From NCBI RefSeq assembly GCF_050920415.1, contig NZ_CP169309.1: a stretch of 64,000 bases of DNA; one strand, given 5' to 3'. The number at the start of each line of letters is the position of its first letter. The first letter of the stretch is position 1. Positions 59,001-64,000 of this stretch are shown one piece after another. The position numbers are program-made. The DNA comes from Escherichia coli (GTDB taxonomy: Bacteria; Pseudomonadota; Gammaproteobacteria; Enterobacterales; Enterobacteriaceae).

Positions 59001-62000
59001 GCCAATCGGATAGCCGCGTCCGGGGTGTAAATCTGGCATCCCTACTACGCGTTGCATGTCGGGTAAATTTGCCGTGATGTGTAATTGTTGGATCGCTGAA
59101 CTCTCGATCCACAGGTCATCAGATGCAATGGTAAATACCGCATCGGATAAGGGACGAATATATTTGCCCATGTATCATTCCATTTATACTCGTCATACTT
59201 CAAGTTGCATGTACTGCGACTGCGTTCGTTCACCCCAGTCACTTACTTTAGTAAGCTCCTGGGGATTCACTCGCTTGTCGCCTTCCTGCAACTCGAATTA
59301 TTTAGAGTATATAAATATAAAAATCAGGAAATGGCAGACGAATCCAGGGCAAGAAAAAAAGAATTAATCCTGGAAAGGTCTGCAAAGAGTCATTGATAAA
59401 GGATTTTTCATGATTTACCTCCTTGCAGTTTGTGGAATAAGAAAACGCGCACATATTAGGCGGGCGTTATTTTCATTGCAAGCTGGATTTAGTGTTGCGG
59501 TTTATATCGCATATGAAAATTAGTAAACCACGCTCCCCGGCATTCAACGCGCTGCTGCTTAACTGTCTGAAAACCATAACGTTCAAAAAAGGGTTTTGCG
59601 GTTATGCTGGCGTCCACCGTAAGTTCGGATTCAGACTTAATCAAAGGTTTTAACAAAGCGCTGGCAACCCCACGGCGGGTATATTCAGGGTCAACAAATA
59701 ACATATCGATATAATGTTCAATGCGGGAAATAAAACCAACCGGTTGTGCATTAATCACAGCAACCCGCACTTGTGATTTCGCGAGTTTCTCTTTCCATCG
59801 ATGTTCATCAATCTGCGCCCAGGCGGCAATTTGTTGTGGTGAATAATGCTGACTGGCGGTCATCGTAACCGCTCTAATAAAAATAGCGCATAGTTGCTGA
59901 AAATCGCCAGGCTGATAGTCTCTTATTTGTATATTATTCATAATCCCAACACCAGTTGTCTTTCCATTTGCGGATCCAGCAACGTCACATGCAGCCCCAC
60001 CAGCCGCACACCGCGCCCGCCACGGCGTTCATCCCAGGTTTTACGCGCAGTGGCGATCAAGTCAGCTTTATTCAGCCGCGGCCAGACGTGTTCCTGAGTG
60101 GTTTGCTGAAAATCGTCGAACTTTAATTTCACCCCCTGGCGGGCAATCAGCAAATCAGGTTTTACCTTTGCCAGACGGCGTTCAAGTTCCGGATACAACC
60201 GCTCGATAATCGCTTCACATTCAGACCAATGATGAATATCTTCCGCCATCGTGCGTTCCACACCAACGGATTTTCGCAACCTTTCGCTGTTAACGTCGCG
60301 CTCGTCAATGCCCTGGCTACGCTCCCACAAAATGCGGCCAAATTTGCCAAAGCGTTTAAGCAACGTCACCAGATCACACTTTTGTACATCGCCACAGGTT
60401 CGTAGCCCCATCGCTTCCAGTTTTGCCGCCGAGACTTTGCCGACACCGGGAATTTTTGCCAGCGGTAAGGTTTGCAGAAATGCCGGAACTTCTGCCGGCG
60501 TAATCACAAACTGACCGTTGGGTTTATTCATGTCTGAGGCGATTTTGGCGAGAAACTTGACCGGCGCAACGCCCGCAGACGCCGTCAGTTGCAGCTCGTT
60601 GAAGATCGTCTGGCGGATTTCCTGAGCGATAAGGGTCGCAGAGCCGTGGCAATGTACGCTGTCGGTGACGTCGAGATAAGCTTCATCCAGCGACAACGGC
60701 TCAATACGCGATGTGTAGCGAGAGAAGATTTCGCGGATATGATTTGACGCTTCTTTGTAGGCGTCAAAGCGCCCTGGAAGCAAGGTGAGATGCGGACACA
60801 GTTTGAGCGCCATGCCGGTTGGCATTGCGCTACGCACGCCAAATTTACGCGCGGGATAATTGGCGGTGCTGATCACCCCCCGGCGTTCGCGGCTGCCGCC
60901 AATAGCAATAGGGATATCGCGCAGGGCGGGATTGTCGCGCATCTCCACCGCGGCGAAAAAGCAGTCCATATCCACATGAATGATTTTACGCATTGCTCAC
61001 CTCTCAATACTGGTAAAGTATACAGTGATTTCAGAGTTTGAGAAATGCGTAAAGATTCAGCATTTAACGCGTTCGCTGCGAAAGCACCTGCTGCTTATCC
61101 AGCTTTTTCACCAACGGCTGCACCACCTTATCCCCATGCTGACCAAAATATTGATACAACGTATCGGACGCGCTTTTGGTGAGCACCATAATCTCAATGC
61201 GCCGGTTACCCGCGCTTTGCGGATTTTTGGCATCCAGCAGCATCTGGTCCGCCATCGCGCTCACCTGCATTACTTTATCTTCCGGCATCCCGGCGTCTTC
61301 CAGCACCCGACGGGCCGAGAGCGCGCGGTCACCCGAAAGGTTCCAGTTGTTGTAGATATTGCTTTTATAGGCCATCGCATCGGTATGCCCGGTAATAATA
61401 ATTTTGTTATCGAGCGAGTCGAATACCGGCGCGAGCTCCACCAGCAGCGTTTTAAAGAACGGCATAATCTTCGCGCTGCCGCGTTCAAACATATTGCGGT
61501 TCTGGTCATCTTTAATCAGCACGCGTAATCCCTGCGGAACAATCTCCATCTCCAGATTGGCTTCCATATGCGCATCGCGGGCGATGGTGTTGATACTGGT
61601 CGCCAGCTCGCCAAGCTCAGTGGCGGACTTCTTCTTCAGTAGCGCCGTTTTCTCGTTGACGTCGCGGGCTTTTTTCTCCGTCTCTTCCGGCACCGCCACG
61701 GTGGCAGGTTTCAGCGGATGCGTCGGGCTGATTTTATTTAACGGCGATAGCCCGCCGCCGTTGAAAATCGACTGCCCGTGCAGCGCGGCGATAATGCTTT
61801 CACGCTCGGATTTACTGACGCTGTTGACAATCCACAGCGTCATAAACAGCGCCATCATTGCCAAAGTAAAGTCGGCGAACGCCACCTTCCACGCCCCGCC
61901 GTGATGCCCGGCATGATTCTTTTTGATCTGCCGCCGGACGATGGTGGTTTTTGCCCCTCGCTCGCGGCGGTTGCCCGTCTTCCTCATGCTTATTCTTGCT

Positions 62001-64000
62001 CCAGCATCGCATTCACCCACGCGTCGAGGTTGGCGAAAGTCGGTTTTGACGCCAGATGCAGCAGCTTACGCCCGGCATCCACCGCCAGCAGCGTCGGTTT
62101 GCCGCCCGCCTGCGCCACCAGCACGGTACGCACGCACTCCAGCAGCGAATGTTCCGCCCGCGCCTGCTGTTCCATGGCGTTGGCGAGCGGGTCCATCAGG
62201 CAGTAGCAGATAAAGACGCCTAAAAACGTCCCCACCAGCGCCGCCGCCACTTTCAGGCCAATCAGGGCGATAGAGCCGTCAATCGACTGCATGGTGATGA
62301 TGATGCCGAGCACTGCCGCGCAAATGCCAAACCCCGGCATCGCTTCGGCGGTACGTTGCAATGAGCGCGACGGCGTGAGCAGCGACTCTTCGGCGGTGTC
62401 CAGCTCCTGATCGAGAATGCCTTCCAGTTCATGGGCGTCGATTTTGCCCATCGCCATCAGGCGAAAGTTATCGGCAATAAAAGTCACCAGCCGCTTCTGG
62501 GTTAATATCAGCGGGTATTTCTGGAAAATGGTGCTCTCTTCCGGCTGCTCGATATGCTGATCCAGCATACGCAGGCCGCCGTTTTGCACCATTTCGAGCA
62601 ACTCATACAGACACATTAAAAGCTGACGCTGAAACTCCGGCCCGAGCTGTTTTTTACTGATCACGCCTTTAATTTGATGGGCAATCTCTTTCAGCACATG
62701 TTTTGGGTTACCAATAATCATCGCCCCGAAACCCGCGCCTAAAATAATGATCATTTCCGCCGGTTGCCAGATAGCGACTAATTGTCCACCGGCTTCAAAA
62801 TATCCGCCAAATACGCAGCCGAGCACCACCAGTAAACCTAATATTTTTTGCATGATTTCTTCACTTTAATTCGGATAGACAAAATCACGAATTTTCTGCG
62901 CGATCTGTTTATTCAGTTGACAAATTCGGGCCTCGGTTAGCCCTAATACCAGCGCAATTTCTTTGAGATTCATCTCATGCTGGTAATACATGGCGAGGAT
63001 CAGTTGCTCTTTTTCACTTAATTGTGAAAGCGCCTGTTGCAGCATTTGCTGAGTAATAAACTGATCTTCCAGTTCCCTGCCAGCAAGCGGAATGCCAGGC
63101 CCTTCGCCGTTCAGCAGTTCGTCAAGGCTGGCGAGCGTTTCCGCTCCTTCCAGTTGCTGATATTCGAGATAATCTTCATGCGAAATCCCTTCCACAGCCA
63201 GTTCTGACCACTCCGGTTCGTGCCCCAGTTTCTTACGCGTTTCGCGTATCAGGTCTTTCATCTGATGATATTTCTGCCGCAGCTGGCGCGGTCGCCAGTC
63301 GAGAGCGCGCAGCTCATCCAGGATCGCACCGCGAATACGGTGCACAGCATAGCCCGCAAAACCTTCATCCGGCAGCCCGTAGCGGCGAATGGCGTTAAGC
63401 AGCCCCATTAACGCCGTTTGTTCCATATCCTGACGGTCAATAATGCAGTTACATTGCGGGGCAAGTTGCCGCACCACTTTACGCACCAACGGTAAATAGG
63501 CCTGCAAATAGTGGCTCTCCTGCTGCGCGGTTAATACCGGCGCGGCAGCAAATTCTTCTGACTCGAATACGTCCTGTAGCATATTTATATCCGCCTGGTG
63601 ATTACTGGAAGACCACTTTTTTCACCAGTAAATCCTTATACGGTGCGCTCATTTTGCGACGCTGAAGATCTTGCTTTAGCGCATCAGAAATCAGTTTGCG
63701 GATGGCAGATATTTTCATGCCACGCAAATCTTCAAATTTCATTTCCGTCAGGCATTCAACTGCAATACTTTGATACAGCGGTTCCTGATGTTTTATTTTT
63801 TCCGCCTCTTTGTCACTGGCGACCACCATGACTAACTCCGCCGACAAATAATGATCCGCGCCGTTGTTGTCATGCAGCGTGACAATGGTTTCCGGTAAGG
63901 TCACAAATACACTTTTGCTCTCATCCAGAGTTTCCACGGATTCCGTCTGCGCGGCGGCAGTCGGTTTTCCTTTTCCGGCATAGTGATGCCAGACTCCCCA

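What the first reader, a model, noticed from the sequence alone, without database searches (positions are those of the whole stretch)
61064..64000. Intact tail of a Flag-2 lateral-flagella cluster abutting dinB
Four co-oriented, tightly packed genes encode a FliL-like protein, a sigma-28-type factor, and MotA- and MotB-like stator proteins; the FliL-like frame continues past the window end. Established: K-12 retains only fragments of this cluster. Intact genes here suggest a more complete Flag-2 locus beyond the window.
Basis: partly seen in the sequence, partly recalled or inferred. Interest (0 to 1): 0.45.

Follow-up and report, generated by a model that had tools for sequence, protein, structure and literature searches.

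The report
Intact end of E. coli Flag-2 flagellar cluster
The last 3 kb of the window hold four intact genes (FliL-like LafF, sigma-28 LafS, stator proteins LafT and LafU) that end the known second ("Flag-2", lateral-type) flagellar gene cluster, which about a quarter of E. coli strains carry next to dinB; this is a correct but ordinary, already described feature.

Summary
On the minus strand lie lafU (61064-61987, 307 aa), lafT (61990-62853), lafS (62866-63582) and lafF (63602 to beyond 64000). Gaps between them are 2, 12 and 19 nt, and lafU ends 70 nt from dinB. All four score above curated family cut-offs and are 97-99% identical to LafU/T/S/F of E. coli 042, the reference Flag-2 strain. 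They have no frameshifts, and dN/dS against 042 is 0.02-0.05.

The sequence past the window cannot be read. Two assemblies are 100% identical to the window's last 5-11 kb. One, a draft contig, runs on through lafE to the lfgJ end (9.6 kb held). The other, the complete genome MFDS1022581, carries a full lfhA-to-lafU cluster of about 42 kb with no pseudogenes, and lfgC is intact there.

K-12 keeps only window 61064-~61830 of lafU, fused to an lfhA fragment. About 24% of complete E. coli genomes (1299 of 5426) carry the intact tail, matching published figures.

The four genes look like the distal half of a lafBCDEFSTU operon behind a conserved sigma-54 promoter upstream of lafB.

Verdict: already known, low interest.

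The parts
61064..61987 (-). lafU: MotB-type stator subunit of Flag-2 (307 aa)
   Evidence: NCBIfam LafU equivalog scores 571 bits against a cut-off of 383. Pfam finds MotB_plug and OmpA domains. It is 97% identical to 042 LafU and 33% identical to K-12 MotB, with Asp39 aligned to the proton-binding Asp32.
61990..62853 (-). lafT: MotA-type stator subunit of Flag-2 (287 aa)
   Evidence: TIGR03818 MotA scores 376 bits against a cut-off of 304. Pfam finds MotA_N and MotA_ExbB. It is 99% identical to 042 LafT and 37% identical to K-12 MotA. Pro173 and Pro222 are conserved, Arg90 is Gln and Glu98 is Asp. It matches solved MotA chains, for example 6ysl.
62866..63582 (-). lafS: FliA/WhiG-type sigma-28 factor of Flag-2 (238 aa)
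   Evidence: NF009091 scores 446 bits (cut-off 339) and TIGR02479 scores 201 (cut-off 189.6). Pfam finds Sigma70 regions 2 and 4. It is 98% identical to 042 LafS and 37% identical to K-12 FliA.
63602..64000 (-). lafF: FliL-family protein, C-terminal 132 of 155 codons; the start lies about 69 nt past the window end
   Evidence: Pfam FliL scores 41.8 bits against a cut-off of 24.6. The full 155-aa protein in the identical relative (L001 4624-5091) is 99% identical to 042 LafF and has an N-terminal hydrophobic segment.
61821..61832 (.). Position in lafU of the K-12-type Flag-2 deletion end-point (imperfect 12-nt repeat)
   Evidence: K-12 matches the relative up to L001 2854 (window 61832) and then jumps to lfhA at L001 42622, leaving 39.77 kb missing. 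The repeat is GATTGTCAACAG versus GATGATCATCAG.
60994..61063 (-). lafU-dinB spacer with the dinB LexA box (61008-61027); no intrinsic terminator
   Evidence: The LexA-box match CACTGTATACTTTACCAGTA is. No minus-strand terminator-like site was found here. An inverted repeat at 61044-61053 / 60985-60994 covers the dinB AUG.

Best explanation
Window 61064-64000 is the promoter-distal end of gene cluster 3 (lafWZABCDEFSTU) of the E. coli Flag-2 locus. This is the lateral-flagella-type second flagellar system that sits between lfhA (yafL side) and dinB.

Shown here: four intact genes encode LafF, LafS, LafT and LafU.
- LafF is a single-pass FliL-family protein.
- LafS is a sigma-28 of the FliA/WhiG family.
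- LafT is MotA-like, with both conserved channel prolines.
- LafU is MotB-like, with the conserved transmembrane Asp, a plug and an OmpA-type peptidoglycan-binding domain.
- The genes have evolved under strong purifying selection.
- The closest relatives carry a complete Flag-2 cluster with no pseudogenes.

Inferred mechanism: the four genes are co-transcribed with lafB-lafE from a sigma-54 (-24/-12) promoter about 32 nt upstream of lafB. That promoter would be activated by the cluster's own sigma-54 enhancer-binding protein LafK, as in the class-2 step of the Vibrio parahaemolyticus lateral-flagella hierarchy. LafS would then direct RNA polymerase to late promoters (lafA, probably lfgMN) once the anti-sigma factor LfgM is exported. 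LafT and LafU would assemble as a proton-conducting stator anchored to peptidoglycan and drive the LfiG rotor. LafF would support stator function under load.

Whether E. coli actually builds and uses these flagella, and under which conditions, is not shown here or in the literature read.
For: - Gene identity: family scores are above curated cut-offs, and the proteins are 97-99% identical to E. coli 042 LafU/T/S/F with equal lengths.
- Paralogy to the primary system: 33-37% identity to K-12 MotB/MotA/FliA. MotB Asp32 and MotA Pro173/Pro222 are conserved.
- Purifying selection against 042: dN/dS is 0.018-0.045 for lafF/S/T/U. lafA has 43 synonymous and 0 non-synonymous differences.
- Complete cluster in relatives: MFDS1022581 has lfhA through lafU with no pseudogene flag and an intact lfgC, whereas 042 has a frameshift in lfgC.
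- The exact LafS protein lies on at least 24 contigs. All five shown places have lafF-lafE-lafD-lafC-lafB-lafA upstream, and L009 is 100% identical to the window end.
- Operon reading: all spacers from lafB to lafU are 22 nt or less.
- The 10/11 sigma-54 match TGGCACGCCTTTTGCC upstream of lafB is one of only three such matches in 49.5 kb. A second lies upstream of lfgB and the third upstream of a variable-region gene after lfgN.
- That box is invariant in six E. coli alleles while neighbouring bases vary.
- A hairpin plus T-run terminator follows lafA.
- Published hierarchy: LafK/sigma-54 drives class II genes, which include the lateral sigma-28 (PMC4481668, citing Stewart and McCarter 2003).
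- Locus description and 24/100 prevalence come from PMC6993521. Here, 1299 of 5426 genomes carry the tail.
Against: - The window itself ends inside lafF. Everything upstream is read from relatives, one of which differs from the window by a prophage elsewhere.
- No transcription data were used. The sigma-54 promoter and operon structure are sequence inferences.
- Expression of Flag-2 in E. coli has not been demonstrated. In ST131 strain EC958, no LafA and no Flag-2 motility were detected in LB or soft agar at 28 or 37 C (PMC4637896).
- LafT lacks the MotA Arg90 charge (it has Gln), so the rotor-stator contact differs from the E. coli paradigm.
- LafF does not reach NCBIfam FliL equivalog cut-offs (26 bits against 131).
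Confidence: 0.85

Rival explanations
1. The genes are intact in sequence but belong to a cryptic, functionally silent remnant that E. coli no longer uses and is on its way to loss, as in K-12.
For: - 76% of E. coli have the lfhA-lafU deletion (PMC6993521), and 4127 of 5426 complete genomes lack the tail.
- 042 has a frameshifted lfgC.
- EC958 does not express LafA under laboratory conditions (PMC4637896).
- Cargo genes (an EcoRII-type endonuclease and Dcm) have been inserted between lfgA and lfgM in the relative.
Against: - dN/dS is 0.00-0.06 across lafA-lafU at dS 0.12-0.40, so the genes were under selection for most of the divergence.
- There are no pseudogenes among the flagellar genes of the closest relative.
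- The lafZ-lafA regulatory spacer is 98% identical, although synonymous sites differ by about 25%.
- The sigma-54 box is invariant.
Confidence: 0.2
2. The stator genes lafT-lafU (or lafS-lafU) form their own late transcription unit driven by a sigma-28 promoter directly upstream. This is like motAB in the flagellar class-3 regulon of K-12, and is what the first reader proposed to check.
For: In K-12 the motAB-cheAW operon is FliA-dependent (established knowledge). A weak 9/11 sigma-54-like match lies inside lafS at window 63097-63082, so an internal promoter of some kind cannot be excluded.
Against: - The lafS-lafT spacer is 12 nt and the lafF-lafS spacer is 19 nt, too short for a promoter.
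- A scan for TAAA-N14-16-GCCGATAA with up to 2 mismatches finds nothing upstream of lafT or lafS. The only nearby hit is inside lafU.
- A motif derived from the lafA and lfgM upstream regions occurs nowhere else in the cluster.
- The 9/11 sigma-54-like matches are mostly intragenic and at chance level.
Confidence: 0.07
3. LafT and LafU act as spare stators for the primary (Flag-1) motor rather than for a separate Flag-2 motor.
For: Stator exchange between paralogous stator sets is known in other bacteria (established knowledge, for example Shewanella and Bacillus). LafT and LafU keep the residues needed for proton conduction.
Against: - They are embedded in an operon with Flag-2 filament, hook-length and sigma genes.
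- LafT has Gln at MotA Arg90, and the Flag-2 rotor protein LfiG has Ala/Ile at FliG Asp288/Asp289. The Glu98-Arg281 pair is kept as Asp/Arg. This matched change suggests LafT is fitted to LfiG and not to FliG.
Confidence: 0.05

Closest known systems
Flag-2 locus of enteroaggregative E. coli 042 (Ren et al. 2005; surveyed in Enterobacterales by De Maayer et al. 2020, PMC6993521)
   Same: The gene order lafF-lafS-lafT-lafU-dinB and the protein lengths are the same, with 97-99% amino-acid identity. The sigma-54 box upstream of lafB is the same. The chromosomal site between yafL and dinB is the same.
   Different: - Nucleotide identity is about 94-95%.
- lfgC is intact in the relative of this window but frameshifted in 042.
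- The relative carries an EcoRII-type endonuclease and Dcm between lfgA and lfgM, two extra genes in variable region 1, no RelE/ParE pair between lafW and lafZ, and HicAB instead of rayT beside lfhA.
- dinB is followed directly by yafP, with no yafNO.
lfhA/lafU pseudogene pair of E. coli K-12 (b0229/b0230)
   Same: K-12 keeps the 3' 769 nt of lafU, corresponding to window 61064-~61832, at about 94-95% identity and still in an open frame. The lafU-dinB spacer is the same.
   Different: K-12 lacks the first about 155 nt of lafU and everything from lafT to codon about 127 of lfhA. That is 39.77 kb relative to the intact relative.
Lateral flagellar system of Vibrio parahaemolyticus / Aeromonas hydrophila / Plesiomonas shigelloides (lafA-lafU region)
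   Same: The lafB-C-D/X-E-F-S-T-U order is the same, with a sigma-28 and proton-type stator genes at the end of the operon and LafK/sigma-54 at the top of the hierarchy (PMC4481668).
   Different: In those organisms the system is experimentally functional for swarming. In E. coli, function is unproven (PMC4637896). Sequence comparison with the Vibrio proteins was not run here.
Primary E. coli flagellar genes fliL, fliA, motA, motB (Flag-1)
   Same: The protein families and key residues are the same: MotB Asp32, MotA Pro173 and Pro222.
   Different: - Identity is only 33-37%, and LafF/FliL similarity is undetectable by BLAST.
- The four genes form one block in Flag-2 but are scattered over three regions in Flag-1.
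- MotA Arg90 is not conserved.
- Regulation is through sigma-54/LafK instead of FlhDC (inference).

Membership tests
Flag-2 (lateral-type) flagellar cluster 3, lafWZABCDEFSTU | Co-oriented gene order lafF-lafS-lafT-lafU at the dinB-proximal end of the locus | tested here: met
   ORF map, RefSeq annotation of the identical sequence, and the same order in 042.
Flag-2 (lateral-type) flagellar cluster 3, lafWZABCDEFSTU | Orthology to the reference E. coli 042 Flag-2 proteins | tested here: met
   97%, 99%, 98% and 99% identity over full length for LafU, LafT, LafS and LafF.
Flag-2 (lateral-type) flagellar cluster 3, lafWZABCDEFSTU | The rest of the locus (lafA flagellin, lfg, lfi and lfh genes, lafK) is present upstream | tested here: inconclusive
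   This cannot be read in the window. It is met in relatives that are 100% identical to the window end: L009 for 9.6 kb beyond the window, and MFDS1022581 for the whole 42 kb.
MotA/MotB flagellar stator | MotB-type subunit with a conserved transmembrane Asp, a plug segment and an OmpA-like peptidoglycan-binding domain | tested here: met
   LafU Asp39 aligns with MotB Asp32. Pfam MotB_plug scores 55 bits and OmpA scores 52 bits.
MotA/MotB flagellar stator | MotA-type subunit with MotA_N and MotA/ExbB channel domains and prolines 173 and 222 | tested here: met
   TIGR03818 scores 376 bits against a cut-off of 304. Pro173 and Pro222 align in a gap-free alignment.
MotA/MotB flagellar stator | Cytoplasmic-loop charges Arg90 and Glu98 that contact FliG | tested here: not met
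   LafT has Gln90 and Asp98. The partner LfiG has Ala/Ile at FliG Asp288/Asp289 but keeps Lys264 and Arg281. This rests on pairwise alignment only and is not a family-defining requirement outside the E. coli/Salmonella paradigm.
MotA/MotB flagellar stator | Proton conduction and torque generation | not testable with these tools
   This needs motility and ion-dependence assays.
FliA/WhiG sigma-28 | Sigma-70 regions 2 and 4, a score above the subfamily cut-off, and a cognate anti-sigma FlgM in the locus | tested here: met
   NF009091 scores 446 (cut-off 339) and TIGR02479 scores 201 (cut-off 189.6). Pfam finds regions 2 and 4. An flgM homologue (lfgM) is present in the relative's cluster.
FliA/WhiG sigma-28 | Recognisable dependent promoters in the cluster | tested here: inconclusive
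   There is no good TAAA-N15-GCCGATAA match in any intergenic region. lafA and lfgM share TAAAGTTT-like -35 boxes with a CG(Y)TTT element 13-14 nt downstream, but that motif was derived from those same two sites.
FliL | Single N-terminal transmembrane helix followed by the FliL domain | tested here: met
   Pfam FliL scores 41.8 against a cut-off of 24.6. The hydrophobic N-terminus MKKIVVAGVVSAVLALVVGAGAGWGVW is seen in the full-length copy. NCBIfam FliL equivalogs are not reached (26 against 131), so it is a family member and not the Flag-1 FliL equivalog.

The most novel reading that the evidence does not exclude
In this rare E. coli lineage the whole Flag-2 system is intact and has been kept by strong purifying selection. 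It would therefore be a working second motility or adhesion organelle, switched on by LafK/sigma-54 under natural conditions not yet reproduced in the laboratory. Its stator (LafT Gln90/Asp98) would be co-adapted to its own rotor (LfiG lacking the Asp288/Asp289 charges), so the two E. coli motors would be insulated from each other. A further speculative reading concerns the end of the operon, which has no terminator. Operon transcription may run into dinB, while a conserved hairpin masks the dinB start codon on such read-through RNA.
Probability: 0.35. Interest if true: 0.35.

Novelty: already known. Interest (0 to 1): 0.1.

Why it matters
The result mainly shows that the first-stage reader can recognise a genuine accessory locus from raw sequence. 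Biologically, the locus is a textbook example of presence/absence polymorphism in E. coli. About a quarter of strains keep a 42-kb second flagellar system that K-12 lost through one deletion.

The open question is what Flag-2 does in E. coli, since no expression has been shown. That question is not advanced by finding one more intact copy. The selection figures (lafA: 43 synonymous and 0 non-synonymous changes against 042) and the fully intact cluster in this lineage do mark it as a reasonable strain background for functional tests.

Tried and rejected
1. I scanned for a sigma-28 consensus (TAAA-N14-16-GCCGATAA, up to 2 mismatches) across 49.5 kb. There were no hits in front of lafS, lafT, lafA or lfgM. 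The idea of a dedicated late promoter for the stators was rejected.
2. A motif built from the lafA and lfgM upstream regions found only those two sites. It is circular, so it is not used as evidence.
3. I first assumed the window was the MFDS1022581 chromosome itself. That was rejected: translation of 'prophage' coordinates failed, and BLAST shows collinearity only from window 48601 onward. The window lacks that strain's prophage at tRNA-Thr. The prophage genes are therefore not in the window.
4. I looked for covariation support for the lafU-dinB hairpin. The two variable spacer positions (T/C and A/G) are linked but do not pair in the fold, so there is no support.
5. An Rfam scan of 57000-64000 found nothing.
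6. Ren et al. 2005 (PMC545627) is not held in the library. Its content is cited only through PMC6993521 and PMC4637896.
7. The generic sigma-70 and terminator scan of 60800-64000 was at shuffle level.
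Full report
**1. What is in the sequence**

The ORF list for 58000-64000 and the raw sequence show four long minus-strand ORFs that fill 61064-64000.
- 61064-62020 is the maximal GTG ORF of 318 aa. The ATG at 61987 gives 307 aa.
- 61990-62853 encodes 287 aa.
- 62866-63582 encodes 238 aa.
- An ORF starting at 63602 is still open at the window end.

Spacers are 2, 12 and 19 nt. Downstream lie dinB (59938-60993), which starts 70 nt after the first ORF's stop, then yafP (59489-59941), an RtcB-family ligase gene (58032-59171) and prfH.

**2. Identity of the four genes**

The NCBIfam results are:
- ORF1 matches the LafU equivalog NF005273 at 571 bits (cut-off 383).
- ORF2 matches MotA TIGR03818 at 376 bits (cut-off 304).
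- ORF3 matches the FliA/WhiG equivalog NF009091 at 446 bits (cut-off 339) and TIGR02479 at 201 bits (cut-off 189.6).
- ORF4 gives only sub-threshold FliL equivalog hits.

The Pfam results are:
- ORF1: MotB_plug and OmpA.
- ORF2: MotA_N and MotA_ExbB.
- ORF3: Sigma70 regions 2 and 4.
- ORF4: FliL at 41.8 bits (cut-off 24.6).

Against E. coli 042, the strain in which Flag-2 was defined, the proteins have identical lengths. They are 97% (LafU), 99% (LafT), 98% (LafS) and 99% (LafF) identical.

Against the K-12 primary-flagellum paralogues they are 33% (MotB), 37% (MotA) and 37% (FliA) identical. LafF and FliL show no BLAST similarity.

Functional residues were read from the gap-free parts of those alignments.
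- LafU Asp39 aligns with MotB Asp32.
- LafT Pro173 and Pro222 align with the MotA channel prolines.
- MotA Arg90 is Gln in LafT.
- MotA Glu98 is Asp in LafT.

The genes are the Flag-2 genes lafF, lafS, lafT and lafU, and they are intact.

**3. What lies beyond the window**

A megablast of 61000-64000 against 5426 complete E. coli genomes finds one 100% match, strain MFDS1022581 (NZ_CP169399.1). Five genomes match at 97.6-98.4%, and the remaining full-length matches are at or below about 95.3%.

The window is not that genome. It is collinear with it only from 48601 to 64000 (99.97%; 58979-64000 has zero mismatches). It lacks that strain's roughly 49-kb prophage at tRNA-Thr.

In MFDS1022581 the sequence continues from lafF through the full gene set. 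This runs lafE, lafD, lafC, lafB, lafA, lafZ, lafW, lfgL-lfgB, lfgA, lfgM, lfgN, a variable region, lfiJ-lfiE, lafK, lfiM-lfiR, lfhB and lfhA. None of these is flagged as a pseudogene, and lfgC is intact. 042 has a frameshifted lfgC.

Independently, an exact-sequence look-up of LafS finds it in 91 index blocks. Of the 24 contigs read, all five displayed places have lafF-lafE-lafD-lafC-lafB-lafA-lafZ-lafW-lfgL-lfgK upstream. One of them, L009 (GCA_024067635.2), is 100% identical to window 52866-64000. It is also 100% identical to MFDS1022581 for the 9.6 kb past the window end.

One caveat remains: the window's own genome was not seen.

**4. Relation to K-12 and prevalence**

K-12 annotates lfhA (b0229) and lafU (b0230) as adjacent pseudogenes next to dinB. 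BLAST of that junction against the intact relative shows that K-12 keeps lafU only up to window position about 61832. It then continues in lfhA at L001 42622. That leaves 39.77 kb missing, with an imperfect 12-nt repeat (GATTGTCAACAG / GATGATCATCAG) at the join.

1299 of 5426 complete genomes (24%) cover at least 80% of 61000-64000, and essentially all the others match only the lafU fragment. De Maayer et al. report 24 of 100 E. coli with Flag-2 and the deletion scar in the other 76 (PMC6993521). Nothing about presence, position or content is new.

**5. Are the genes maintained?**

Nei-Gojobori estimates against 042 are:
- lafF: dN/dS 0.018
- lafS: dN/dS 0.043
- lafT: dN/dS 0.022
- lafU: dN/dS 0.045
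- lafB: dN/dS 0.016
- lafA: 43 synonymous and 0 non-synonymous differences

Synonymous divergence (dS) ranges from 0.12 to 0.40. The 488-nt lafZ-lafA spacer is 98% identical even though synonymous sites differ by about 25%. These figures argue for function over most of the divergence time.

They do not exclude recent silencing. The K-12 lafU fragment also gives a dN/dS of 0.04 and an open frame, so pairwise ratios cannot date loss of function.

**6. How the block is probably expressed**

The lafS-lafT and lafF-lafS spacers are 12 and 19 nt. A scan for TAAA-N14-16-GCCGATAA with up to 2 mismatches gives no hit upstream of lafT, lafS, lafA or lfgM.

All spacers from lafB to lafU are 22 nt or less. 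A scan for the sigma-54 -24/-12 element gives three 10/11 matches in 49.5 kb, all in sensible intergenic positions.
- One is about 32 nt upstream of the lafB ATG (TGGCACGCCTTTTGCC, L001 8254-8239).
- One is about 37 nt upstream of lfgB.
- One is upstream of a variable-region gene after lfgN.

The lafB box is invariant in 042 and in five further alleles, while adjacent bases vary. It is preceded by a hairpin plus T-run terminator that ends the lafA unit.

The cluster encodes a sigma-54 activator, lafK. In the V. parahaemolyticus model, LafK/sigma-54 drives class II genes that include the lateral sigma-28 (PMC4481668).

The most likely reading is that lafF-lafS-lafT-lafU are the distal half of a sigma-54/LafK-dependent lafBCDEFSTU operon. 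LafS would then turn on late genes. This is inference from sequence only.

Candidate LafS-type promoters upstream of lafA and lfgM share a TAAAGTTT-like box and a CG(Y)TTT element. That motif was derived from those two sites and finds nothing else, so it remains a lead only.

**7. Rotor-stator detail**

LafT carries Gln at MotA Arg90 and Asp at MotA Glu98. The Flag-2 rotor protein LfiG, read from the relative, keeps FliG Lys264 and Arg281 but has Ala and Ile at Asp288 and Asp289, and Pro at Arg297.

In the E. coli paradigm (established knowledge), Arg90 pairs with Asp289 and Glu98 pairs with Arg281. Flag-2 therefore seems to have lost one charge pair on both partners and kept the other. This fits a stator dedicated to its own rotor. 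The inference rests on pairwise alignments only.

**8. Literature on function**

Flag-2 of ST131 strain EC958 has an intact lfgC. It gave no LafA signal and no motility in LB or soft agar at 28 or 37 C (PMC4637896). The homologous Plesiomonas system is functional for swarming (PMC4481668). The function of Flag-2 in E. coli therefore remains open, and this window does not change that.

**9. Verdict**

The feature is a known accessory locus at its known site, in a somewhat rare E. coli lineage. Core genes gpt-pepD are 97% identical or less to most genomes. Novelty: already known. Interest: low.

Noticed in passing
window 59938-59941 (dinB/yafP junction): dinB overlaps yafP directly (ATGA). The yafN-yafO toxin-antitoxin pair that separates them in K-12 and 042 is absent here and in the relatives L009-L012.
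   Followed up: partly
window 56544-59171: There is an intact prfH (release factor H, TIGR03072 at 324 bits) and an RtcB-family ligase gene (NF007153 at 639 bits). Next to them are a YdjM-family gene (56834-57358, Pfam 35.8 bits) and a 93-aa ORF with no family (56544-56825). K-12 has only the ykfJ and prfH fragments at this site.
   Followed up: partly
window 60985-61053 (lafU-dinB spacer): There is no intrinsic terminator between lafU and dinB. A 9-10 bp inverted repeat (61044-61053 with 60985-60994) brackets the dinB LexA box, and its 3' arm covers the dinB AUG. The RNA fold is -30.2 kcal/mol with z = -2.9. On read-through RNA from lafU it could mask the dinB start, while transcripts from dinB's own promoter would lack the 5' arm. 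It is invariant in K-12 and 042, so there is no covariation test.
   Followed up: partly
window 62560-62590 (LafT codons 90-98) and L001 33737-34747 (lfiG): LafT has Gln/Asp at MotA Arg90/Glu98. LfiG has Ala/Ile at FliG Asp288/Asp289 but keeps Lys264 and Arg281. This looks like matched loss of one rotor-stator charge pair.
   Followed up: partly
L001 8200-8475 (lafA-lafB spacer of NZ_CP169399.1): The RefSeq 'hypothetical protein' WP_237710166.1 lies in a spacer made of two REP-like palindromes, the lafA terminator and the sigma-54 promoter of lafB. 042 lacks 85 nt of it and has no such ORF. It is probably a spurious gene call.
   Followed up: partly
L001 21871-24587: A DNA cytosine methyltransferase and a type II restriction endonuclease are inserted between lfgA and lfgM inside the Flag-2 cluster of the closest relative. 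This insertion was already reported as EcoRII/Dcm cargo in 21 Escherichia strains (PMC6993521).
   Followed up: yes
L013 12490-16621 (GCA_943590815.1): This genome has the identical LafS protein, but homology to the window stops 29 nt before the lafU stop. putA and putP follow instead of dinB, and LafU is 304 aa. This suggests a rearrangement break-point at the very end of Flag-2.
   Followed up: no
window 48601 and upstream; window 53500-57000: The window comes from a sibling of strain MFDS1022581 that lacks that strain's roughly 49-kb lambdoid prophage at tRNA-Thr (proA side) and a further roughly 12.6-kb insertion upstream. The lineage is rare: only 15 of 5424 matching records (among 5426 complete genomes) are at least 99% identical over gpt-pepD. 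Strain N96 is essentially identical there (99.97%) but only 97.9% identical in the Flag-2 tail, which hints at recombination in this region.
   Followed up: partly
L004 10061-10828 (K-12 lafU pseudogene): The K-12 lafU fragment is still an open frame. It shows a dN/dS of 0.04 against both intact alleles, so pairwise ratios cannot reveal when the locus was inactivated.
   Followed up: partly
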